Shown: piece after piece, positions 3,451-44,817 of the stretch
Layout of the letters: the number at the start of each line of letters is the position of its first letter
How positions within the stretch are numbered: position 1 is the stretch's first letter
From: Gemmatimonadota bacterium
GTDB taxonomy: Bacteria > Gemmatimonadota > Gemmatimonadetes > Longimicrobiales > RSA9
NCBI GenBank assembly: GCA_040882575.1
Contig: JBBEBA010000053.1
Span: 25,534-89,533, forward strand
DNA: 64,000 nt
Direction of reading: 5' to 3'
Notes under the pieces: generated by a model
The model's input: the letters and a program-made list of their open reading frames with translations, nothing else
What the model was told of the DNA's origin: nothing
Database searches by the model: none
Translations under genes and position numbers: made by a program

Positions 3451-4140
3451 ATGCCATCCATGAAGAGCAGAGCTGAGACGCTCATGTCGGCAGTACTAAC
3501 CGTGGCCGCCGTAGTGCTAACAGGTGCGGTGCTAACGCGTGAATATGGATTCCGCTCAAATGCTGTGGGAAGTACGCCTCCTTCTGGAGAGCCAGAGCTG
3601 TACGAAGATTGGAGAGAATGGATCGCTCACGGCGAAATATCAGGAGATGACTCGGCATCGGCGATTGTCATCGAATTTGCCGATTTCGAGTGCCCTGCAT
3701 GCCGCAGATTCCATCACGCTGTCCTCACGCCTGTCAAGGATACCTTTGGCGCTTCTGTCGCAGTCGTCTTTATGCATCTCCCTCTAAGCATGCACCGCTT
3801 CGCGGAGCCCGCTGCCCGAGCGAGCGAATGTGCGTCAAATCAGGCCAGGTTCTTCCAGTTTGCTGACGTTGTGTTCGAGAAACAGGATTCCCTGGGACTA
3901 AAAACATGGTCATCCTATGCCGCCGAGGCAGGAGTTACGGACGCAGAGAGGTACTCCAACTGCGTATCGCTACAAACGTCCTTCCCCCGAATAGCCATGG
4001 GCAAGTCAATCGCCACAGAGTTGGGGATAACTGGGACTCCGACGGTTTTCATAAACGGCTGGAGATTCCCCACGCCCCCAAGTGAAGCTGAAATGGAACG
4101 CGTGATTGGGGAGATCCTGGCGGGAAGAGCGCCATTTTGA
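3451..4140 (+). CDS. Membrane-anchored DsbA-family thiol:disulfide oxidoreductase
   Basis: 229-aa ORF with an N-terminal TM helix (LMSAVLTVAAVVLTGAVL). The CxxC motif sits in a DsbA-type context: VIEFADFECPACRRFHH. An alternative ATG at 3460 has better spacing to AGAGGA. Confidence 0.75.
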   Translation: MPSMKSRAETLMSAVLTVAAVVLTGAVLTREYGFRSNAVGSTPPSGEPELYEDWREWIAHGEISGDDSASAIVIEFADFECPACRRFHHAVLTPVKDTFGASVAVVFMHLPLSMHRFAEPAARASECASNQARFFQFADVVFEKQDSLGLKTWSSYAAEAGVTDAERYSNCVSLQTSFPRIAMGKSIATELGITGTPTVFINGWRFPTPPSEAEMERVIGEILAGRAPF

Positions 4141-10583: not shown

Positions 10584-11795
10584 GTGGAATCTCTCCTCCA
10601 GGACATCATCGAGCTCCTGATCCGTTTGGGGCCGTGGGTAGTCCTGCTCGTCACGGCGACCGAAACGGCCTTCTTCATCGGCCTGCTGATCCCGGCTGAA
10701 GCGACAGTGCTCGTCGCGGCCTTCATGGCGCAGGCCGGCTACTTCAGCGTGGTGCACGTGCTGCTGGCGACGATTCTCGGTGGCCTGCTGGGCGACCAGA
10801 TCGGGTATGTCCTGGGGCGGACGGGGGGGCGGCGCGCCGCAGCGAGCGCGGGTCGGCTGGGTCGGCTGTGGCGGCAGCACGAGGCGCGCGCCCTCGTGCT
10901 GTTCCGCCAGCGCTCCATCCTCGCCGTGTCGGCCGCCCGATTCATCTCCTTCGTCCGCACGCTCATGCCGTGGTTCGCCGGCATGAGCCGCATGTCCTAC
11001 GGCCGCTTCCTGCTCTACGACGCCATCGGCGTGATCGGCTGGGGCACGGCCTCCGTTGGAGCCGGTTATCTCGCCGGCCGCAGCTGGCACGTCATGGCGA
11101 GTGCACTCGGCACGGCGAGCACCCTCATCATCCTCGCGCTGCTCGGCACCATCGGTCTCATGACGATCCGCAGTCGGCGCCGCATGCGGTCGCTGCTGCG
11201 CGTCGCACTGACCGGCAACATCGCGAGCGGCAAGTCGGCCGTGGCGGAAGTGTGGCAGTCGCTCGGCGCTGACATCATCGATGCCGACGATCTCGCGCGC
11301 CGCGTCGTGGAGCCCGGCACGGATGCCCTGCGCGCCGTCGTCGCGCACTTCGGGGACGGCGTGCTGCACGCGGACGGCTCGCTGGATCGTGCAGCGCTGC
11401 GCGCGATCGTGTTCGGCGATGACGACCGGAGGCTCGCGCTCGAGGCCATGCTGCATCCCGAGATCGAGCGGCTGCGCCTGCGGGAGGAGCGTGGAGCCGC
11501 GGCTCGCGGCGAGCACATCGTGGTGCATTCCATCCCGCTGCTGTTCGAGACGGGGCTCGATGACGGCTTCGACGTCATCGTCCTGGTCGATGCGCCGGAT
11601 GCGGTGCGCCGTGATCGGCTCGTGATGTTGCGAGGCATCGATCCGGACGAGGCCGACCGCATGATGGCAGCCCAGCTGCCGGCGTCAACCAAGCGCTTGC
11701 GGGCGCACTACGTGATCGAGAACGACGCGGGGCTGGACGAGCTCACGGCGCGCGCCGGCGAAGTATGGATGGAGATCCGTGCCCGCAATGAATGA
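10584..11795 (+). CDS. coaE: Fusion protein: DedA-family membrane domain plus dephospho-CoA kinase
   Basis: 403-aa ORF with a GTG start. The first ~200 aa are DedA-like multi-TM (VLLVTATETAFFIGLLIPAEATVLVAAF...). The C-terminal half is CoaE-like, with P-loop VALTGNIASGKSAV and ...HPEIERLRL...VHSIPLLFE.... Confidence 0.8.
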   Translation: MESLLQDIIELLIRLGPWVVLLVTATETAFFIGLLIPAEATVLVAAFMAQAGYFSVVHVLLATILGGLLGDQIGYVLGRTGGRRAAASAGRLGRLWRQHEARALVLFRQRSILAVSAARFISFVRTLMPWFAGMSRMSYGRFLLYDAIGVIGWGTASVGAGYLAGRSWHVMASALGTASTLIILALLGTIGLMTIRSRRRMRSLLRVALTGNIASGKSAVAEVWQSLGADIIDADDLARRVVEPGTDALRAVVAHFGDGVLHADGSLDRAALRAIVFGDDDRRLALEAMLHPEIERLRLREERGAAARGEHIVVHSIPLLFETGLDDGFDVIVLVDAPDAVRRDRLVMLRGIDPDEADRMMAAQLPASTKRLRAHYVIENDAGLDELTARAGEVWMEIRARNE

Positions 11796-14877: not shown

Positions 14878-15804
14878 ATGTCAATACCGATGTCGCTGAA
14901 GGCGGCGGCCTGGGAGCTGCCGCACAATTTCCTCGGACTGGATGAAGCCGGCGGCGCGTTCGACCGTGCGGGAGCGGTGATCCTGCCGGTGCCGTACGAA
15001 GCGACGACGAGCTTCGGCGGCGGCACGGGCGGCGGGCCGCGGGCGATCATCGAGGCGTCGCGCTACATCGAGCTGTACGATCAGGAGCTGGATTCGGAGC
15101 CGTCCGGGATCGGCATTGCGACGCTGCCGTCGCTGGCGCTGACGGGCGCGGGTCCGCAGCAGGCGCTGACCGAGCTGCGGACGGCGTATGACGCATTGCT
15201 CGAGGCGGCGCCGGACAAGTTCATCGTGCTGCTTGGAGGAGAGCACTCGGTGTCGAGCGCGCCGATTCTCGCGTGGGCGGACCGGCTCGATCGAGAAGGG
15301 CGGCGGCTGAGTGTGCTGCAGGTGGACGCGCACACGGATCTGCGGCCCGAGTACGAGGGCTCTCCGTACTCGCACGCATCGGTGATGGCACGCGTGCAGG
15401 ATCGCGTCGAGATCGCTGCGGTCGGGATCCGCGCGCTGACGAGCGAAGAGATGCGGCTGGTGCGGCGGTCGGAGAACATCCACCTGTTCCTGGCGGATGA
15501 CATTCACGCGGGTGACGCATGGATCGACGACGTGCTGTCGCGGCTGGGCGAGGATGTGTACATCACGTTCGATGTCGATGGATTCGATCCTTCGCTGGTG
15601 CCGTCCACGGGCACGCCCGAGCCGGGCGGGCTGCAGTGGTATCCGGTGCTGAAACTGCTGCGGCGCGTGTTCACGGAGCGAAAGGTCCATGCAGTCGACG
15701 TCGTCGAGCTCGCGCCGATCCCGGGCCTGTCGGCGCCTGACTTCCTGGTGGCGAAGCTCATCTACAAGATGATCGGCTACCGCTTCCTGCAGCCGCGGGG
15801 CTGA
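14878..15804 (+). CDS. speB: Agmatinase / arginase-family ureohydrolase
   Basis: Starts at the ATG at 14878 within ORF 14716..15804. Mn-binding motifs are LGGEHSVS, QVDAHTDLR, TFDVDGFDP and VDVVEL. Confidence 0.8.
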   Translation: MSIPMSLKAAAWELPHNFLGLDEAGGAFDRAGAVILPVPYEATTSFGGGTGGGPRAIIEASRYIELYDQELDSEPSGIGIATLPSLALTGAGPQQALTELRTAYDALLEAAPDKFIVLLGGEHSVSSAPILAWADRLDREGRRLSVLQVDAHTDLRPEYEGSPYSHASVMARVQDRVEIAAVGIRALTSEEMRLVRRSENIHLFLADDIHAGDAWIDDVLSRLGEDVYITFDVDGFDPSLVPSTGTPEPGGLQWYPVLKLLRRVFTERKVHAVDVVELAPIPGLSAPDFLVAKLIYKMIGYRFLQPRG

Positions 15805-15837: not shown

Positions 15838-17619
15838 TCAGAAGGCGGAGCGGCGTTCGCGCGCGTGACGCTGCAGGATGGGCAGCTCGGGCGGCTCGGA
15901 GTACCTGCGGAAAATGGCGTGCAGGTCCAGCGGGTCGTCAATGGGATAGTCTTCGGGCACGAGGCCGCGCGGCGTGAGCAGAAATGGCCAGCCCTGACGC
16001 CCGCCGAGCGCGCCGTGCGCGCCGATCTGGTCGTCGAAGCAGATGCAGATGTCGTTCTCGGCGTCATAGGAGCCGAACAGGACCATGTCGCCGGCGTTCT
16101 TCATGTTGGCGAGTTGCGCGATCGCTCGCCGCTCGACGGCGGACTCCGCATAATCGCGGAGCGGATCTTCGCCTGACAGCATCTCCATCTCACCGGCCGG
16201 CGTAATGAGAGCGCGACCACGCAGCGTCTCGACGTGTGCGCCATCGAGCATGCGCGTGATGACGCAGCCAATGCCGCCGTGCGCGACGAGGAAGTAGTAC
16301 AGCGCGCGACGGTCCGGGTCTTCTCGGATCTCGTCGAACGACAGCGGCCGCTCCGGCTGTGTCCAGTACACGTGTGCAAGCGACGACGAGTAGGTGACGA
16401 TGATTTTCTCCTCGTCCACCTCCTTCACGGTCTCGGGCAGGAGCGGGAACAGGTTGTAGTGCTGCCTGATCCAGCGGCCGAGGCCGAGGCCTGCCTTGCG
16501 CGCGGGCAGGATCGACTCCTCCGAAACGTGCTCGAGCTCCTGGACGAGGAAGTCCATGGCATCCTGGTGCTCGATGGAGTAGTCGCCCGTACCGGCCATG
16601 ACGAGGACGCCGTGTTTGGTGGCATTCACGATGGTGTCGCCGAGCGTCTCGTCGTAGCGGATACGGTACGGCACGGATGGCGTCTGGCCGTGGTCGCTCA
16701 GGATATACAGGTCGTAGGGACGGCCGGGGGCACGTCGCAGCATGGCCATGATCTCGCCGATACGGCGGTCGAGCGCGCGCACGCTGCCGAACGCCATGCG
16801 GGTACCGGGCCCGAAATGGTGCGCGAACTCGTCGTACACGTTGTACGTGGTGTAGATCGCCGGCACGCCCGTGTAGATGTCGAGCAGCACGGCGAGCGTC
16901 TGCAACTCGCGCAGCACGACGTTCGTGCCCATGTGCAGGAACGGCAGGTACCACCAGTAGTAGGTGTACTGGCCGCGCATCTGTCCCCAGACGCGCACGA
17001 CTTCCTCGCGCAGGTACTCGAGGATGCTGTCGATCACCATCCGCACCATGCGGATCGGATGCAGCAGTGCGAGCAGCGCAACGCGGCCGCCGCCCATCTT
17101 GCCCAGCAGTCGCTGCGGCTTCTTCGCGGCGAGCGTGAAGATGGCGCGGTCGGCACCGCCATCGTAGATGTTGACGTAACCCGAGCCGCCGTCGAGGATG
17201 CCGGATTCCGGCAGCCGGTCGCGGATGTGCTGTACGTCGGCGGGCTTGGACCCTATGATCAGGCGCCGCTCGGACTTCTCGTAGAAGCGGAACGCCGGAA
17301 TGTCCTCCTTGGTGCCGTAGAAGATTGCGGCCTGCGCGGCGGGTGTCGCGCTCGGCAGGCCGGCCGGGAAGCGGCGCAGCTCCCAGCCGTCGCGTTCGAT
17401 GAGGCGGCGCAGGCGCGGCGCGTAGCCGCGCTCGATGGCGGTGATCAGGTCGTCGTGCGCGAGCGCATCGATCTGGATGACGATGAAGCCGCGTTCGTCA
17501 CGCTCGAGCCGTCGCTTCCGCTCGCCCGTGAACGGAAAGTACTTGAGGCGGTAATAGAAACGGTAGATGGAGCGACGCAATCGCTTCAACCTGTTCGGAG
17601 AAGAGATGGAAGGCTCCAT
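15838..17619 (-). CDS. Alkaline-phosphatase-superfamily protein (nucleotide pyrophosphatase/phosphodiesterase-like)
   Basis: IVIQIDALAHDDL, GLPSATPAAQAAIFYG (nucleophile-Thr context) and YILSDHGQTP are present. The first ATG is at 17619. In-frame TTG alternatives are at 17589 and 17580. Confidence 0.7.
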   Translation of the reverse strand: MEPSISSPNRLKRLRRSIYRFYYRLKYFPFTGERKRRLERDERGFIVIQIDALAHDDLITAIERGYAPRLRRLIERDGWELRRFPAGLPSATPAAQAAIFYGTKEDIPAFRFYEKSERRLIIGSKPADVQHIRDRLPESGILDGGSGYVNIYDGGADRAIFTLAAKKPQRLLGKMGGGRVALLALLHPIRMVRMVIDSILEYLREEVVRVWGQMRGQYTYYWWYLPFLHMGTNVVLRELQTLAVLLDIYTGVPAIYTTYNVYDEFAHHFGPGTRMAFGSVRALDRRIGEIMAMLRRAPGRPYDLYILSDHGQTPSVPYRIRYDETLGDTIVNATKHGVLVMAGTGDYSIEHQDAMDFLVQELEHVSEESILPARKAGLGLGRWIRQHYNLFPLLPETVKEVDEEKIIVTYSSSLAHVYWTQPERPLSFDEIREDPDRRALYYFLVAHGGIGCVITRMLDGAHVETLRGRALITPAGEMEMLSGEDPLRDYAESAVERRAIAQLANMKNAGDMVLFGSYDAENDICICFDDQIGAHGALGGRQGWPFLLTPRGLVPEDYPIDDPLDLHAIFRRYSEPPELPILQRHARERRSAF

Positions 17620-18334
17620 ATCGCTCGCAGCCGCATTTGCGGCTGGCGTACTCTCGTTCCTGTCGCCGTGCGTACTTCCCATCGTACCCGGTTACCTCGG
17701 CTTCATCACCGGCATGTCGCTGGATGAGCTGCGCAGTGTGCCCTCCCGCCGGGCAGTAATGGTGCCAGCGTCGTTCTTCGTTGCCGGATTCACGATCATC
17801 TTCCTGCTGCTCGGCGCGTCAGCCACCCTGCTCGGGCAGGTCCTGAACGTATACGACGACTGGATCGCGCGCATTGGCGGGGTGGTCATCATTCTGTTCG
17901 GTCTGCATCTGCTCGGCGTGCTGCGCATAGGAGCCCTGCTGCGGGAGCGGCGCGTCCACCTGAACCAGTCGCCCGCCGGCCATGCGGGAGCGCTGCTGGC
18001 CGGGCTGGCGTTCGGCGCCGGCTGGACGCCCTGCATCGGCCCGATCCTCGGTGCGCTGCTGACGTACGCCGGCGCCCGCGAGACGCTGGGCGGCGGGATG
18101 GTTCTGCTGGCCACGTACTCGCTCGGTCTCGCCGTGCCCTTCCTGCTGGCCGCGCTCGCGACCGGGTGGTTCCTCGACGTGTCGCAGCGGCTGCGCGGCG
18201 CGCTGCCGATCATCGAGAAGACGTCCGGTGTCGTGCTGGTCGCCGTGGGACTGTTGCTCGTGAGCGGTTCGTTCACCTTGCTGTCGGCGTGGCTGACGCG
18301 TTACACGCCCGCTTTCCTGCTGGACAGGCTGTAG
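17606..18334 (+). CDS. ccdA: Cytochrome c biogenesis / thiol-disulfide electron transporter CcdA (DsbD family)
   Basis: Starts at the ATG at 17606: MEGSISLAAAFAAGVLSFLSPCVLPIVPGYLGF...WTPCIGPILGALL. The two conserved Cys lie in TM helices. Confidence 0.85.
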   Translation: MEGSISLAAAFAAGVLSFLSPCVLPIVPGYLGFITGMSLDELRSVPSRRAVMVPASFFVAGFTIIFLLLGASATLLGQVLNVYDDWIARIGGVVIILFGLHLLGVLRIGALLRERRVHLNQSPAGHAGALLAGLAFGAGWTPCIGPILGALLTYAGARETLGGGMVLLATYSLGLAVPFLLAALATGWFLDVSQRLRGALPIIEKTSGVVLVAVGLLLVSGSFTLLSAWLTRYTPAFLLDRL

Positions 18335-26033: not shown

Positions 26034-26089
26034 TTTCACGCTTCACGCTTCACGCTTCACGCTTCACGCTTCACGCTTCACGTTTCACG
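26034..26089. repeat. Heptamer tandem array (YTTCACG x8)
   Basis: Read directly: tttcacg, cttcacg x6, tttcacg, then ctgtt. It lies between the convergent permease stop (26026) and OMP stop (26101). Confidence 0.95.
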
Positions 26090-41874: not shown

Positions 41875-42261
41875 ATGGCAGACGCGCGCGCGGGTTACAT
41901 GACGCTCGACATCGAGGGGCACGAGGTGCTCGTCGGGCGGAGTGCGCGCGACAACGACGAGCTCACGTTCCGCGTCGCACGCCCGACCGACGTGTGGCTG
42001 CATGCCGCCGGACACGCCGGCAGTCACGTCATCATTCGCGCGCCCGACGATGGCAGCGACGTCCCGCGCAGCGTGCTCGAGCGCGCAGCTGCCTGCGCCG
42101 CATTTCATTCCAAGGCCAGGAACGCGCGCGGCAAGGTGGAGGTGCACGTCTGCCGTGCAGGCGACGTGCGCAAACCCCGCGGTGTGCCCGCCGGCACCGT
42201 CGAGCTGCGACGCTACGATACCGTGCGCGTATATCCGCGGACGGGCGGAGCCGACGGATGA
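41875..42261 (+). CDS. NFACT-R/DUF814 domain protein
   Basis: Starts at the ATG at 41875: LVGRSARDNDELTF...DVWLHAAGHAGSHVIIR...AAFHSKARN...VEVHVC. Confidence 0.7.
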   Translation: MADARAGYMTLDIEGHEVLVGRSARDNDELTFRVARPTDVWLHAAGHAGSHVIIRAPDDGSDVPRSVLERAAACAAFHSKARNARGKVEVHVCRAGDVRKPRGVPAGTVELRRYDTVRVYPRTGGADG

Positions 42262-42728
42262 GCCACGTCGATCCCGACACGTTCAAGGACGCGCTCGCGC
42301 ACTGGGCAGCCGGTGTCGCCGTGGTCGCGTGCCGCACCGATGACCGCGTCGTCGCGACGACGATCTCCGCCTTCATGTCGCTCTCGGTCGAGCCGCCGCA
42401 GGTGCTGCTCGCGCTCGGTCCCAACGCCACCGTCAGACCGTTCCTCACGGCCGGTGCACGCTTCGGCGTCAGTATCCTGGCCGGGGCCCAGCGGCGCCTC
42501 GCCAGCGTGTTCGCCGACCCGTTTCCCGTAGGCCCCGACCCCTTCGCTTCCTCCGGCGACCCGGTCATTGCCGACGCCCTCGTCCGGCTCGCCTGCGTCG
42601 TCACTCACGTGAGCGACGGCGGCTCTCACGCAGTCGTCACCGCGACCGTCGAATCCGCGCACGTCGGCCCCGGCGCCGATCCGCTGGTCAGGTTCGGTCG
42701 CGCCTACCACCGCCTCCACCGCCCCTGA
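42258..42728 (+). CDS. Flavin reductase-like domain protein
   Basis: The ATG at 42258 overlaps the upstream stop (ATGA). FKDALAHWAAGVAVVACRTDDRVVATTISAFMSLSVEPPQVLLAL is present. Confidence 0.75.
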   Translation: MSHVDPDTFKDALAHWAAGVAVVACRTDDRVVATTISAFMSLSVEPPQVLLALGPNATVRPFLTAGARFGVSILAGAQRRLASVFADPFPVGPDPFASSGDPVIADALVRLACVVTHVSDGGSHAVVTATVESAHVGPGADPLVRFGRAYHRLHRP

Positions 42729-42851
42729 CGCGACAGTGTCCCGATCGAAAACCCGGACCGGCCTGCTCCGCCGTTTCCCCGACCCGCTGCTGTTGCCGGC
42801 AGCACCGCCACAGCCCATCTTGGACCAGGCACTCATCAAGGAGCAGACGAC

Positions 42852-43436
42852 ATGCATGTGCGGACCATCGCGCTCGCCGCAGCGCTCACCGCCGGACTCG
42901 CGGCGCCCGCCGCCGCGCAGGATGCGCTGACGAGCTCACCCCTCGAGGTCGGCGCAGTTGCGCCCGATTTCGCCATCACCGGTGCCACGCGCTACGGCGT
43001 CCTGCGGGAGCAGGTGCGATTGAGCGATTACGCGGGCCAGACCGTCGTCCTTGCCTTCTTCTTCAGGGCACGGACGCGCGGCTGAACGATTCAAATGCAC
43101 GCGTACCGTGATCAGTACGCGCAGGTATTCAACAACGGGCAGAACGTCGTGCTCATCGCGATCAGTGCGGATTCCATCGAGGACCTGCACTCGTGGGCGC
43201 ACGATGACCATTTCCAGTTCCTGATGGGCAGCGACACGGACCTCACCGTTGCCCGGCTGTACGGCGCCATGTCGCCACGCGGTCCGACGACGAACCGCAA
43301 CCTGTTTGTCATTGGTCCCGACGGCAGGATCGCACATCGCGCGGTGCCGTTCCGCGAGATCGATCCGACGGCGTACGAGGAGCTTGGCGAGGTGATCGAC
43401 CGGCTGGCGCCGGCCGCAGACTTGGAGGACGGCTGA
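42852..43436 (+). CDS. Exported peroxiredoxin (BCP/AhpC-TSA family) with an in-frame TGA at the peroxidatic position; probable selenocysteine protein
   Basis: ORFs 42852..43085 and 43095..43436 share one frame and are separated by TGA ACG ATT CAA. AAGGAG lies 8 nt upstream of the ATG. The signal peptide is MHVRTIALAAALTAGLAAPAAAQD. The joined sequence ...GQTVVLAFFFRARTRG[TGA]TIQMHAYRDQYAQVFNNGQNVVLIAISAD... fits the Prx T-x-x-C active-site layout. Confidence 0.7.
43100..43121 (+). promoter_or_regulatory. Candidate bacterial SECIS hairpin
   Basis: CGCGTAC-CGTGATCA-GTACGCG: a perfect 7-bp stem with an 8-nt loop containing GU. The stem starts 14 nt after the TGA at 43083-43085. Confidence 0.5.
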
Positions 43437-43442
43437 ACAACC

Positions 43443-43497
43443 CGTGAAGCGTGAATCGTGAAACGTATCCGTTACTCACGTCTCACGTTTCACGATG
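43443..43497. repeat. Inverted heptamer arrays (CGTGAAR x3 / loop / ACGTYTC x2-3) forming an imperfect ~17-bp hairpin
   Basis: Read directly: cgtgaagcgtgaatcgtgaaacgt-atccgttactc-acgtctcacgtttcacgatg. It lies between the convergent Prx stop (43436) and tlpA-like stop (43506). Confidence 0.9.
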
Positions 43498-43505
43498 TTT
43501 GATGT

Positions 43506-44018
43506 TTACTGTCCGAGCGCCTTCGCGGCAGCCGCCGCGAGGTCCTGCTCCGCCCCCACGCCCGTGTACACGACACGGCCGGCCACGTCCAGCGCCACGA
43601 TGTAGGAAGTAGACGGCGCGCGGTACGCCCGCGTTGCACGGCCGCGGCCGTCGAACAGCACCCGCCCCGGCAGTGAATGGTCCGTCAGATGCCGGCGGAT
43701 CGTGCGCGGTGTCTGATTGACGCCGACCGCGACGACGATCACCTCCAGTGCGTCGCCGTGCTTCCGCTTCACCGCCTCGAGCTGCGGCTCCAGCTCCTCG
43801 CACAGCGGACACCACGTCGCCCAGAACTCGACGATGACCGGCTTGCGTCCGACCCAGGTGCTCAGGTCCACGGTCGCTCCGTCGAGGTCCTCCAGCTGCA
43901 CTGCGTCCGGCACCGCGCCCAGCGGCAGACCGACATCCTGAGTCGCCGCGGGTGCCGCCGCCGCGAGTGGCGCCAGCAGCGCGAACAGCCCCGCGGCAAT
44001 GATAGGACGACGTCGCAT
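43506..44018 (-). CDS. TlpA-like periplasmic thiol:disulfide oxidoreductase (thioredoxin fold)
   Basis: Starts at the ATG at 44018 within ORF 43506..44792. The signal is MRRRPIIAAGLFALLAPLAAAAPAA. The active site is PVIVEFWATWCPLCEEL. Confidence 0.85.
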   Translation of the reverse strand: MRRRPIIAAGLFALLAPLAAAAPAATQDVGLPLGAVPDAVQLEDLDGATVDLSTWVGRKPVIVEFWATWCPLCEELEPQLEAVKRKHGDALEVIVVAVGVNQTPRTIRRHLTDHSLPGRVLFDGRGRATRAYRAPSTSYIVALDVAGRVVYTGVGAEQDLAAAAAKALGQ

Positions 44019-44029
44019 TCGATTCTCCC

Positions 44030-44704
44030 TCACATGACCATGCCCATCTGGATCAGGTAGTACTCCGCCATTGCGAGAAGGATCACGGCGGCGATCCGCT
44101 TCATCCAGATCAGCCACGGCCCGGAGCGGGGAAGACGAGCCAGCGTGCCGGAGAACAGGCCGACCACTACGAGCAGCGCGGTCATGCCCAGCGAGAAGAC
44201 GAAGAGGTAGAGGAACCCGAGGGCGCCGCTGCCGGTCGTGGAGACCCAGGTCAGCACTGCCGCGAACGCGGGCGCGCCGCACGGCGCCGCCACGATACCC
44301 GACGTCGCGCCCAGCAGGAACACGCCCGGGTAGGAGCCGCCGCCCAGCCCTGTCGCCCATGCCGTCAGCCGCCGTGGCGCCGTGACCGGGAAGACGTCGA
44401 GCATGGCGAGTCCGAAGATCAGCAGCAGGTTGGCGATCGCGAAACGCGCCCACGGATTGGCCGAGATCGTACCGAATAGCGTGCCCGTCAGGCCCGCGAT
44501 TAGTCCGAGCGTGGCGTACAGCAGTGCGAGACCCAGCACATACGTCAGCGTCAGCCCCAGCGTCCGCCACCGCGACGACGCTTCTCCCGCCGTGCCCGCG
44601 ATCACGCCCGCCGTAATGGGGATCATCGGGTAGATGCACGGTGTCAGGCTCGTCAGAACACCGGCGCCGAACAGCGTGGCTGCCGCCCACACCGGCCGCT
44701 CCAT
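44030..44704 (-). CDS. ccdA: CcdA/DsbD-family transmembrane electron transporter (second copy)
   Basis: Starts at the ATG at 44704 within ORF 44030..44785. GVLTSLTPCIYPMIPITAG and GIVAAPCGAPAFAAVL are present. The upstream part of the ORF is only a translation of the repeat array. Confidence 0.85.
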   Translation of the reverse strand: MERPVWAAATLFGAGVLTSLTPCIYPMIPITAGVIAGTAGEASSRWRTLGLTLTYVLGLALLYATLGLIAGLTGTLFGTISANPWARFAIANLLLIFGLAMLDVFPVTAPRRLTAWATGLGGGSYPGVFLLGATSGIVAAPCGAPAFAAVLTWVSTTGSGALGFLYLFVFSLGMTALLVVVGLFSGTLARLPRSGPWLIWMKRIAAVILLAMAEYYLIQMGMVM

Positions 44705-44730
44705 CAGTAGCTCCAAGGAGCCCCCCCTCA

Positions 44731-44817
44731 ACGTCGACGTGAACGACGTGAAACGTGAAGCGTAAAACGTAAACGTACGTTTCACGTCTCACGTTTCACG
44801 TTTCACGTTTCACGCTG
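44731..44817. repeat. Inverted heptamer arrays (ACGTGAAR-type units / ACGTTTC-type units), ~87 bp imperfect palindrome
   Basis: Read directly: acgtcgacgtgaacgacgtgaaacgtgaagcgtaaaacgtaaacgt followed by acgtttcacgtctcacgtttcacgtttcacgtttcacgctg. It lies between the lipoprotein stop (44819) and the ccdA start (44704). Confidence 0.9.

What the first reader, a model, noticed from the sequence alone, without database searches (positions are those of the whole stretch)
42852..43436. In-frame TGA at the peroxidatic-Cys position of an exported peroxiredoxin, followed by a SECIS-like hairpin: probable selenoprotein split into two ORFs
ORFs 42852..43085 and 43095..43436 are in the same frame and only TGA ACG ATT CAA apart. 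The joined sequence is ...DYAGQTVVLAFFFRARTRG-[TGA]-TIQMHAYRDQYAQVFNNGQNVVLIAISADSIEDL...NRNLFVIGPDGRI.... This follows the thioredoxin-fold Prx/BCP layout. The TGA sits where the universal PxxxTxxC motif places the catalytic Cys: the Thr at -3 is kept, while the Pro is replaced by Phe. From memory, the BCP-type segment reads ...YFYPKAMTPGCTVQACGLRD.... A perfect 7-bp hairpin (43100-43121, loop CGUGAUCA) starts 14 nt after the TGA, in the range expected for bacterial SECIS elements. Prx-like selenoproteins have been reported from bacterial genome and metagenome surveys, so the family is not new. This locus would nonetheless be mis-annotated as two fragments, and an exported Sec-Prx is uncommon.
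Basis: partly seen in the sequence, partly recalled or inferred. Interest (0 to 1): 0.8.

Follow-up and report, generated by a model that had tools for sequence, protein, structure and literature searches.

The report
Exported selenocysteine peroxiredoxin gene with SECIS hairpin
The two "fragments" are almost certainly one gene for a secreted antioxidant enzyme whose catalytic residue is selenocysteine, read from an in-frame TGA with the help of a conserved RNA hairpin; the enzyme family is already known, but this version is shared by at least 79 Gemmatimonadota species and is split into two pieces in the NCBI records seen here.

Summary
ORFs 42852..43085 and 43095..43436 form one 194-codon gene interrupted only by TGA 43083-85. 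The joined protein matches Pfam AhpC/TSA end to end (E 2e-26). The TGA aligns exactly with the peroxidatic Cys of close Cys-containing homologues and of solved BCP/Prx structures.

Among the 80 best-matching GTDB species representatives, all Gemmatimonadota, 79 carry TGA at this codon. Both halves are intact in all of them. The 7-bp hairpin 43100-43121 (loop CGUGAUCA) is conserved in all 82 TGA forms. Its closing pair covaries at two third-codon positions (C-G 43, U-A 32, G-C 5). Codons +6 to +11 are frozen (GCG TAC CGT GAT CAG TAC), whereas Cys forms encoding the same AYRDQY vary freely. The hairpin meets the published bacterial SECIS model.

The protein has a signal peptide and no Cys. In most species it lies next to a convergent TlpA-like thioredoxin and CcdA, a plausible reducing relay.

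Sec-peroxiredoxins (TxxU) are a known family, so this is a new member. One twist is that the invariant active-site Pro is Phe/Tyr in essentially all Sec forms. selA/B/C/D could not be checked in the same genome.

The parts
42838..42843 (+). Shine-Dalgarno AAGGAG, 8 nt upstream of the start codon
   Evidence: Read directly from the sequence. No comparable site precedes the internal ATG at 43095.
42852..43436 (+). Complete selenoprotein gene: 194 codons including UGA-Sec at codon 78, with its own stop TGA at 43434-36. It encodes an exported BCP/PrxQ-like 1-Sec peroxiredoxin.
   Evidence: The joined translation matches PF00578 over profile positions 1-123 of 124, E 2.3e-26. There are full-length Cys homologues of 190-200 aa. 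Frames are intact on both sides of the TGA in all 82 TGA forms; 6 of them are cut at the 5' end by the contig, and the called N-terminus of L043 looks out of frame.
42852..42917 (+). Predicted Sec-type signal peptide MHVRTIALAAALTAGLAAPAAA, with cleavage predicted before QD
   Evidence: Inferred from the sequence: a basic n-region, a hydrophobic h-region and an A-x-A site. Equivalent N-termini occur in most of the TGA forms with a complete 5' end. No signal-peptide predictor was available.
43062..43085 (+). Active-site motif F-R-A-R-T-R-G-U. It corresponds to PxxxTxxC, with Phe in place of Pro and Sec in place of Cys.
   Evidence: Alignment A1 and PDB alignments. The -7 residue is F 65 / Y 13 / S 1 in Sec forms, against P in 105 of 110 Cys forms.
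43083..43085 (+). In-frame UGA, predicted selenocysteine codon at the peroxidatic position
   Evidence: TGA is present at this codon in 79 of 80 species-representative loci, plus L001, L002 and L099. It aligns with Cys in homologues.
43100..43121 (+). SECIS-like hairpin: 7-bp stem (43100-06 with 43115-21) and 8-nt apical loop CGUGAUCA (43107-14), with G-U at loop positions 2-3
   Evidence: Folds at -9.4 kcal/mol. Six pairs are invariant and the closing pair covaries: CG 43, UA 32, GC 5, UG 1, UU 1. Synonymous sites are frozen only in TGA forms. It meets the bSECIS constraints quoted in PMC13188914.
43296..43298 (+). Conserved catalytic Arg (R149, in TNRNLFV)
   Evidence: Nearly invariant column in A1. 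It aligns with the Arg of K-R-A-V-F-V-I in 2ywn and 2cx3.
43506..44018 (-). Convergent neighbour: exported TlpA/ResA-like thioredoxin (WCPLC), the proposed direct reductant
   Evidence: Pfam Redoxin, AhpC-TSA and Thioredoxin. NCBIfam ResA/TlpA hits are below cutoff. It is adjacent and convergent in 57 of 72 loci with enough flank.
44030..44785 (-). CcdA/DsbD-type transmembrane thiol-disulfide electron transporter, in an operon with the TlpA-like gene (NCBI calls the start at 44704)
   Evidence: Pfam DsbD_TM, E 5.6e-45. Adjacent in 56 of 72 loci. Gene calls come from L084.

Best explanation
42852..43436 is a single gene for a secreted 1-Sec peroxiredoxin of the BCP/PrxQ type.

Decoding. During translation, the hairpin at 43100-43121 is proposed to recruit SelB·GTP·Sec-tRNA(Sec); its apical loop begins 21 nt after the UGA. 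UGA 43083-85 is then read as selenocysteine instead of stop, giving a 194-residue precursor.

Export. A Sec-type signal peptide (residues 1-22) sends the protein to the periplasm.

Catalysis. The selenolate at the T-x-x-U site, assisted by Thr75 and Arg149, reduces peroxides through a selenenic-acid intermediate. The mature protein has no Cys at all, so recycling must come from an external thiol. The best candidate is the neighbouring exported TlpA-like thioredoxin, kept reduced by CcdA with electrons from the cytoplasm.

What is shown here: gene continuity, the TGA/Cys correspondence, conservation and covariation of the hairpin, and conserved synteny.

What is inferred: Sec (rather than another residue) at the UGA, SelB binding, export, peroxidase activity and the identity of the reductant.
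For: - The joined ORF is a full-length AhpC/TSA domain. The best solved relatives are BCP-type peroxiredoxins, with the TGA on their peroxidatic Cys and the Arg aligned.
- Close homologues read FFPRARTRG-C-TIQMHAYRDQY.
- 79 of the 80 best GTDB species-representative loci, all Gemmatimonadota, have TGA there and one has TGC.
- All 82 TGA forms keep both halves open, with normal stops (TAG 44, TGA 25, TAA 13).
- Hairpin: 99.8% of cells are paired, and the closing pair is CG 43 / UA 32 / GC 5 through changes at two third-codon positions.
- Codons +6 to +11 are GCG 82/82, TAC 82/82, CGT 79/82, GAT 77/82, CAG 82/82 and TAC 82/82. This is in genes whose other conserved residues mostly use 2-4 synonymous codons.
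- 13 Cys forms encoding the same (A/T)YRD(Q/R)Y use TAT 8/13, CGC 9/13 and GAC 9/13.
- The bSECIS criteria are met: loop 3-9 nt, stem 4-16 bp, G in the first two loop positions, 16-37 nt spacing, MFE <= -7.5 (PMC13188914).
- TGA is the ordinary stop of 28 of 33 Pfam-supported genes in the window, including this gene itself, so the code is not reassigned.
- Synteny with TlpA-like and CcdA genes holds in about 57 of 72 loci.
Against: - No selA, selB, selD or tRNA-Sec was found in the window or in about 100 fetched loci. The rest of the genome could not be reached, so the Sec-decoding trait is not shown for this organism.
- No paper in the library reports Sec use in Gemmatimonadota.
- No Rfam family matches the hairpin.
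- The amino-acid sequence AYRDQYA is partly self-complementary at the DNA level, so 3 of 13 Cys forms can also form 7/7 pairs. The stem alone is therefore weaker evidence than the frozen loop and the covariation.
- Export, activity and the reductant are untested.
Confidence: 0.9

Rival explanations
1. Hairpin-dependent recoding of UGA to a residue other than Sec. One route would be Cys inserted by a tRNA(Sec)-like tRNA(Cys) with a SelB-like factor. Another would be near-cognate read-through by Trp or Cys, stimulated by the structure.
For: Nothing here identifies the inserted residue, and the Sec machinery was not found in the sequence available. Variants of the Sec system that insert Cys have been described in some bacteria (my recollection, not checked in the library).
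Against: - The hairpin fits the SelB-type bSECIS model in loop size, G-U position and spacing.
- If Cys were the product, an ordinary TGC would do, as in the sister Cys forms. Yet the TGA is kept in 79 species together with a correlated Pro to Phe/Tyr change, which suggests a chemically different residue.
Confidence: 0.05
2. A pseudogene: a peroxiredoxin gene inactivated by a nonsense mutation.
For: In one sequence alone, an in-frame stop splitting a conserved domain looks like a pseudogene. NCBI annotates two fragments.
Against: - The same TGA occurs in 79 of 80 species representatives and in independent metagenome contigs.
- Both halves are open and under protein-level conservation (mean identity 73%).
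- An RNA structure present only in the TGA forms is conserved.
Confidence: 0.01
3. Two real products: a 77-residue exported peptide ending at the TGA, and a separate 113-residue protein started at ATG 43095.
For: The ATG at 43095 exists in all forms, and gene callers use it.
Against: - That Met is an internal conserved residue of the TIQM motif in full-length Cys forms too.
- No Shine-Dalgarno precedes it.
- Neither half alone contains a complete thioredoxin fold or the catalytic set. Thr and Sec lie in the first half and Arg in the second.
Confidence: 0.02
4. A sequencing or assembly error at one base (TGC read as TGA).
For: One low-coverage contig (L100, coverage 1.6) reads TTA at this codon, which shows that single-base noise exists in such data.
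Against: TGA was recovered independently in 82+ assemblies from many studies.
Confidence: 0.005

Closest known systems
Selenocysteine-containing peroxiredoxins (Prx selenoprotein family, PF00578 / COG1225, motif TxxU; prototype PrxU of Eubacterium acidaminophilum)
   Same: AhpC/TSA fold, with Sec at the peroxidatic position three residues after a conserved Thr, and a SECIS hairpin just downstream. The family is listed as an established bacterial selenoprotein family (PMC9312934; PMC5029168 Table 3; PMC13188914).
   Different: - It is not the PrxU equivalog: NCBIfam NF040737 scores 46.8 bits against a cutoff of 270.
- The motif is [F/Y]xxxTxxU, not the 'highly conserved PxxxTxxU' described in PMC13188914.
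- It is exported and has no other Cys or Sec.
- It is found in Gemmatimonadota, a phylum that no paper in the library links to Sec.
Cys-containing orthologues in Gemmatimonadota (FFP[RK]ARTxGC-TIQM…, 190-200 aa, annotated 'peroxiredoxin Q/BCP')
   Same: 51-67% identical over the full alignment. They share the same signal peptide and length, and the same TlpA-like/CcdA neighbours (L063, L101).
   Different: They have Cys (TGC/TGT) instead of TGA and Pro at -7. Synonymous variation is free where the Sec forms have the hairpin.
BCP/PrxQ peroxiredoxins of known structure (2ywn/4g2e Sulfolobus tokodaii, 2cx3 Aeropyrum pernix, 3hjp, 3drn)
   Same: They are the best solved relatives (E 1e-10 to 3e-8), aligned over about 155 residues, with the peroxidatic Cys and the catalytic Arg in register.
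   Different: They are cytoplasmic, use Cys and have Pro at -7. They score only 37-45 bits against the query, so the relationship is distant.
Bacterial SECIS consensus (bSECISearch model)
   Same: 8-nt apical loop, 7-bp upper stem, G followed by U at loop positions 2-3, 21 nt between the UGA and the loop, -9.4 kcal/mol.
   Different: There is no conserved lower stem, and no Rfam family matches. The loop CGUGAUCA is lineage-specific.
Periplasmic peroxiredoxins reduced through DsbD/CcdA/ScsB-type transporters (e.g. Caulobacter PprX; my recollection, not checked in the library)
   Same: An exported Prx encoded next to a membrane electron transporter and a periplasmic thioredoxin-like protein.
   Different: Those use Cys. 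Here the electron relay is only inferred from synteny.

Membership tests
Peroxiredoxin (AhpC/TSA, BCP/PrxQ-like) | Full-length AhpC/TSA thioredoxin-fold domain above the Pfam gathering score | tested here: met
   PF00578 at 92.6 bits (cutoff 26), E 2.3e-26, profile positions 1-123 of 124 spanning the TGA.
Peroxiredoxin (AhpC/TSA, BCP/PrxQ-like) | Peroxidatic Cys/Sec three residues after a conserved Thr/Ser (T/SxxC/U) | tested here: met
   T-R-G-[TGA]. It aligns with T-Q-V-C of 2ywn, S-P-V-C of 2cx3 and T-F-V-C of 4kw6, and with T-x-G-C of the Cys orthologues.
Peroxiredoxin (AhpC/TSA, BCP/PrxQ-like) | Conserved Pro at -7 (PxxxTxxC) | tested here: not met
   Phe in the window. Sec forms have F 65 / Y 13 / S 1; Cys forms have P in 105 of 110.
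Peroxiredoxin (AhpC/TSA, BCP/PrxQ-like) | Conserved catalytic Arg | tested here: met
   R149 is nearly invariant in A1 and aligns with the Arg in 2ywn and 2cx3.
Peroxiredoxin (AhpC/TSA, BCP/PrxQ-like) | Peroxidase activity | not testable with these tools
   Needs an enzyme assay.
Bacterial selenoprotein (UGA-Sec decoded via SECIS/SelB) | In-frame UGA aligned with Cys in homologues, with a conserved ORF on both sides | tested here: met
Bacterial selenoprotein (UGA-Sec decoded via SECIS/SelB) | Downstream stem-loop meeting the bSECIS model (loop 3-9 nt, stem 4-16 bp, G in the first two loop positions, 16-37 nt spacing, MFE <= -7.5) | tested here: met
   Loop 8 nt, stem 7 bp, loop C-G-U…, 21 nt spacing, -9.4 kcal/mol. 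Criteria are from PMC13188914.
Bacterial selenoprotein (UGA-Sec decoded via SECIS/SelB) | Stem-loop conserved, with covariation, in UGA forms but not in Cys forms | tested here: met
   A relic hairpin in one FFF+TGC form (L103) fits a recent Sec-to-Cys change.
Bacterial selenoprotein (UGA-Sec decoded via SECIS/SelB) | selA, selB, selC (tRNA-Sec) and selD present in the same genome | not testable with these tools
   None was found in the 64-kb window or in the first 82 fetched loci.
Bacterial selenoprotein (UGA-Sec decoded via SECIS/SelB) | Selenium in the protein | not testable with these tools
   Needs 75Se labelling or mass spectrometry.
PrxU (NCBIfam NF040737 equivalog) | Score above the curated cutoff | tested here: not met
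   46.8 bits against a cutoff of 270.
E. coli-type Bcp (NCBIfam NF006960 equivalog) | Score above the curated cutoff | tested here: not met
   59.3 bits against a cutoff of 140. It is BCP-like but not that equivalog.
Rfam SECIS families | Covariance-model match | tested here: not met
   No hit at gathering score over the window, and none at E <= 10 on 43040-43200.

The most novel reading that the evidence does not exclude
The Gemmatimonadota clade may represent a distinct active-site architecture for selenoperoxiredoxins. The otherwise invariant Pro of PxxxTxxC is replaced by an aromatic residue whenever Cys is replaced by Sec ([F/Y]xxxTxxU). The enzyme works in the periplasm as a Cys-free 1-Sec peroxidase, fed by a dedicated CcdA to TlpA-like relay. 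That would make envelope peroxide defence selenium-dependent across much of a major soil phylum not previously tied to Sec use.
Probability: 0.45. Interest if true: 0.6.

Novelty: new member of a known kind. Interest (0 to 1): 0.45.

Why it matters
- Annotation. In the NCBI records seen here (the window's assembly and one Longimicrobiales MAG) the gene is split into two 'redoxin' fragments, and no NCBIfam model reaches its curated cutoff. At least 79 Gemmatimonadota species representatives carry the same TGA form, so this selenoprotein, and with it the Sec-decoding trait of an abundant soil and sediment phylum, is probably being missed widely.
- Sec-to-Cys evolution. The data set is unusually clean for this question: sister Cys and Sec forms, a latent hairpin already encoded by the AYRDQYA peptide, a relic hairpin in a revertant, and a tightly coupled Pro to Phe/Tyr change next to the catalytic residue.
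- Experiment. It offers a testable case of an exported, Cys-free selenoperoxidase with a candidate dedicated reductant.

Tried and rejected
- tRNA-Sec: ARAGORN found no tRNA in the window. In the first 82 fetched loci it found ordinary tRNAs plus one 96-nt 'tRNA-???' in L042 that lies in coding-like sequence, taken as a false positive.
- Rfam: no match at gathering score or at E <= 10.
- Pfam scan of 40 ORFs of the window found no SelA, SelB or SelD.
- tblastn with E. coli SelA/SelB/SelD sequences recalled from memory found nothing in the window or the first 82 fetched loci.
- Extending the contig beyond the window with edge genes failed. One look-up found no record. The other returned short contigs: a 6.7-kb Logan contig and a 15-kb NCBI contig of GCA_040878885.1.
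- GC3-based scans for other in-frame TGAs flanked by coding signal found no second selenoprotein candidate, either in the window (the other hits are gene ends or antisense shadows) or in all loci.
- No other copy of the hairpin sequence exists outside this gene.
- A lower stem predicted in the single sequence is not conserved and was dropped.
- Literature searches for Gemmatimonadota/Gemmatimonadetes/Gemmatimonas with selenocysteine gave nothing relevant. The supplements of PMC5029168 have no Gemmatimonadetes entry, and the BSepDB supplements are not held.
- I ran no further search on Sec machinery. Only the best 120 hits to a non-Gemmatimonadota query would be listed, so they could not have answered the question.

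Full report
**Observation.** ORFs 42852..43085 and 43095..43436 lie in the same frame on the + strand and are separated only by TGA ACG ATT CAA. A Shine-Dalgarno AAGGAG (42838-43) precedes the first ATG. Nothing comparable precedes the ATG at 43095. With a Cys placed at the TGA, the joined 194-residue sequence matches Pfam AhpC/TSA (PF00578) over profile positions 1-123 of 124, at 92.6 bits and E 2.3e-26. The two pieces are therefore the two halves of one domain. The hairpin is exactly as described: stem 43100-06 with 43115-21, loop CGUGAUCA, 14 nt after the TGA. It folds at -9.4 kcal/mol with z = -3.0. In its 66-nt context it is not remarkable in one sequence alone (z = -1.8).

**Is the TGA at the catalytic Cys?** Yes. 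A protein search returned more than 100 full-length homologues of 190-200 aa, 51-67% identical in the alignment made, mostly named 'peroxiredoxin Q/BCP'. It also returned the window's own C-terminal fragment, annotated by NCBI as a 113-aa 'redoxin domain-containing protein' from a Gemmatimonadota MAG. In the alignment the homologues read FFPRARTRG-C-TIQMHAYRDQY, and the TGA falls on that Cys. Against solved structures, the same column is the peroxidatic Cys of the BCP-type enzymes 2ywn and 2cx3 and of the 2-Cys Prx 4kw6. The catalytic Arg (R149, 43296-98) is also in register.

**Is the TGA conserved?** Two other split orthologues, L001 (a Longimicrobiales MAG) and L002, have the same TGA and an almost identical 40 nt after it. 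A scan of one genome per GTDB species was run with an alignment of the C-terminal half only, so that the Cys/Sec codon could not bias the search. It gave 350 relatives. Of the 80 best, all Gemmatimonadota (Longimicrobiales, Gemmatimonadales, Ca. Kutchimonas, bacterium HR33), 79 have TGA at this codon and one has TGC.

All 82 TGA forms keep both halves open, and most show a signal-peptide-like N-terminus. The downstream half is 109-120 codons and ends in an ordinary stop (TAG 44, TGA 25, TAA 13). Nearly all have no Cys in the mature protein. In the window, TGA is the normal stop of 28 of 33 Pfam-supported genes, including this one, so the genetic code is not reassigned. Pseudogene, assembly error and two-gene readings are excluded by these data.

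**The RNA element.** In the 82 TGA forms, six of the seven stem pairs and most of the loop are invariant. The closing pair covaries as C-G 43, U-A 32, G-C 5, U-G 1, with one mismatch. The changes fall at two third-codon positions: His/Asn CAC/CAT/AAC/AAT with Ala GCG/GCA, and CGG/GAG with GCC.

The decisive control is codon usage.
- Across the gene, most conserved residues use 2-4 synonymous codons; four-fold-degenerate residues have a top-codon share of about 0.35-0.8.
- Codons +6 to +11 after the TGA are frozen: GCG 82/82, TAC 82/82, CGT 79/82, GAT 77/82, CAG 82/82, TAC 82/82. CGT and GAT are the disfavoured choices in these GC-rich genes.
- Thirteen Cys forms have (A/T)YRD(Q/R)Y in these positions (ten exactly AYRDQY). 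Twelve came from a metagenome scan with a pattern that allowed every synonymous codon, plus L063. They vary freely: TAT 8/13, CGC 9/13, GAC 9/13, and Ala GCG/GCC/GCA/GCT.

The nucleotide constraint is therefore tied to the TGA. The element satisfies the published bacterial SECIS model: apical loop 3-9 nt, upper stem 4-16 bp, G (often followed by G or U) in the first two loop positions, 16-37 nt between UGA and loop, and MFE <= -7.5 kcal/mol (PMC13188914). Here the values are 8 nt, 7 bp, loop C-G-U…, 21 nt and -9.4 kcal/mol.

The peptide AYRDQYA is itself partly self-complementary at the DNA level. Three of 13 Cys forms can already make 7/7 pairs. That may explain how a SECIS arose here.

**Evolutionary detail.**
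- With the Cys/Sec and -7 columns masked, all 79 full-length Sec forms fall in one UPGMA cluster of 93 sequences.
- One protein listed with Trp at the site is really TGA in the DNA (L099; the JGI call evidently used another code).
- One with Leu is TTA on a 1.6x-coverage contig with the hairpin intact.
- An FFF + TGC form (L103) retains the loop and six stem pairs, the signature of a recent Sec-to-Cys change.
- An FFY + TGC form (L101) has lost the hairpin.

**Active-site twist.** The Pro of PxxxTxxC is Phe (65), Tyr (13) or Ser (1) in the 79 full-length Sec forms, and Pro in 105 of the 110 full-length hits listed. The five without Pro are the F/Y+Cys forms and the mistranslated or TTA forms just described. 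A 2026 review describes PxxxTxxU as highly conserved in Sec-peroxiredoxins, so this clade departs from the known pattern. I have no tested mechanism for the coupling.

**Function and context.** The closest solved relatives are BCP/PrxQ enzymes. NCBIfam's curated models for E. coli-type Bcp (59 bits against 140) and for the clostridial selenoprotein PrxU (46.8 against 270) are far from met. That probably explains why PGAP splits the gene.

Immediately downstream and convergent lie an exported TlpA/ResA-like thioredoxin (WCPLC; 43506-44018) and a CcdA/DsbD_TM transporter (44030-44785). This arrangement recurs in 57 and 56 of 72 loci with enough flank, including the Cys form L063.

The best-supported mechanism has four steps.
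- SelB/SECIS-dependent insertion of Sec at codon 78.
- Export via the signal peptide.
- Peroxide reduction by the selenolate.
- Recycling by the TlpA-like protein, with electrons passed across the membrane by CcdA.

Only the first step has strong, though indirect, sequence evidence. The remaining steps are inferred from homology and synteny.

**What is missing.** No selA, selB, selD or tRNA-Sec is present in the window or the fetched loci. No second selenoprotein candidate is present either. The remainder of the genome could not be reached, and the library holds no paper on Sec use in Gemmatimonadota. BSepDB explicitly excluded unnamed 'bacterium' genomes. The residue inserted at the UGA is therefore inferred, not shown. 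I put 0.9 on Sec, and about 0.05 on some other hairpin-dependent recoding.

**Comparison and verdict.** Sec-containing peroxiredoxins with a T-x-x-U site are an established bacterial selenoprotein family. This is a new member of a known kind, not a new kind. It is distinct from PrxU. It is exported, Cys-free, and carries F/Y in place of the active-site Pro. It is conserved in at least 79 Gemmatimonadota species and is split into fragments in the NCBI records seen here. The interest is moderate.

Noticed in passing
window 43457-43494, 44747-44814, 26081-26089: The motif CGTGAAACG (heptamer TTTCACG) occurs 8 times against 0.65 expected. One inverted pair lies in the gap between the convergent prx and tlpA-like genes. 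A dense palindrome-plus-tandem array lies just upstream of ccdA, so the tlpA-ccdA operon is bracketed by the motif. Among the loci fetched by then (103), it is seen only in the same organism's contigs L084 and L085, apart from one stray copy in L055.
   Followed up: partly
window 43092-43094 (Gln codon, 3 codons after the TGA): This Gln is CAA in 59 of 82 Sec forms but CAG in 13 of 13 Cys forms. It lies outside the conserved stem, and no conserved lower stem explains it.
   Followed up: partly
L103 1246-1818; L101 1501-2076: These are Cys (TGC) forms that keep Phe/Tyr at -7. L103 still has the SECIS loop and six stem pairs, a likely recent Sec-to-Cys reversion. L101 has lost the hairpin.
   Followed up: partly
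L099 548-1120; L100 101-664: The JGI gene call translated the TGA as Trp (protein P0045), hiding a Sec form as a 'full-length' protein. An ENA contig at 1.6x coverage reads TTA (Leu) at the site with the hairpin intact, which is either a sequencing error or a dead allele.
   Followed up: yes
window 3451-4140 (+) and 17567-18334 (+): A DsbA-like Thioredoxin_4 protein and a second DsbD_TM/CcdA-type transporter are encoded elsewhere in the window. The organism therefore has more than one envelope thiol-redox module.
   Followed up: no
window 42258-42728 (+), just upstream of prx: A flavin-reductase-like gene (PF01613, E 2.6e-24) precedes the prx gene. It is found near prx in only two of the other loci, L003 and L005, so it is probably not part of the module.
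   Followed up: partly
window 15802-15804 (+) and 11685-11687 (-): The GC3 scan flagged these as TGAs with coding-like composition on both sides. Both coincide with gene ends or with antisense shadows of Pfam-supported genes on the other strand, so they were not pursued as selenoprotein candidates.
   Followed up: partly
L042 5910-6005 (-): ARAGORN reported a 96-nt 'tRNA-???' with a 4-base anticodon. The sequence looks like coding DNA with no tRNA-Sec features, so it was taken as a false positive.
   Followed up: yes
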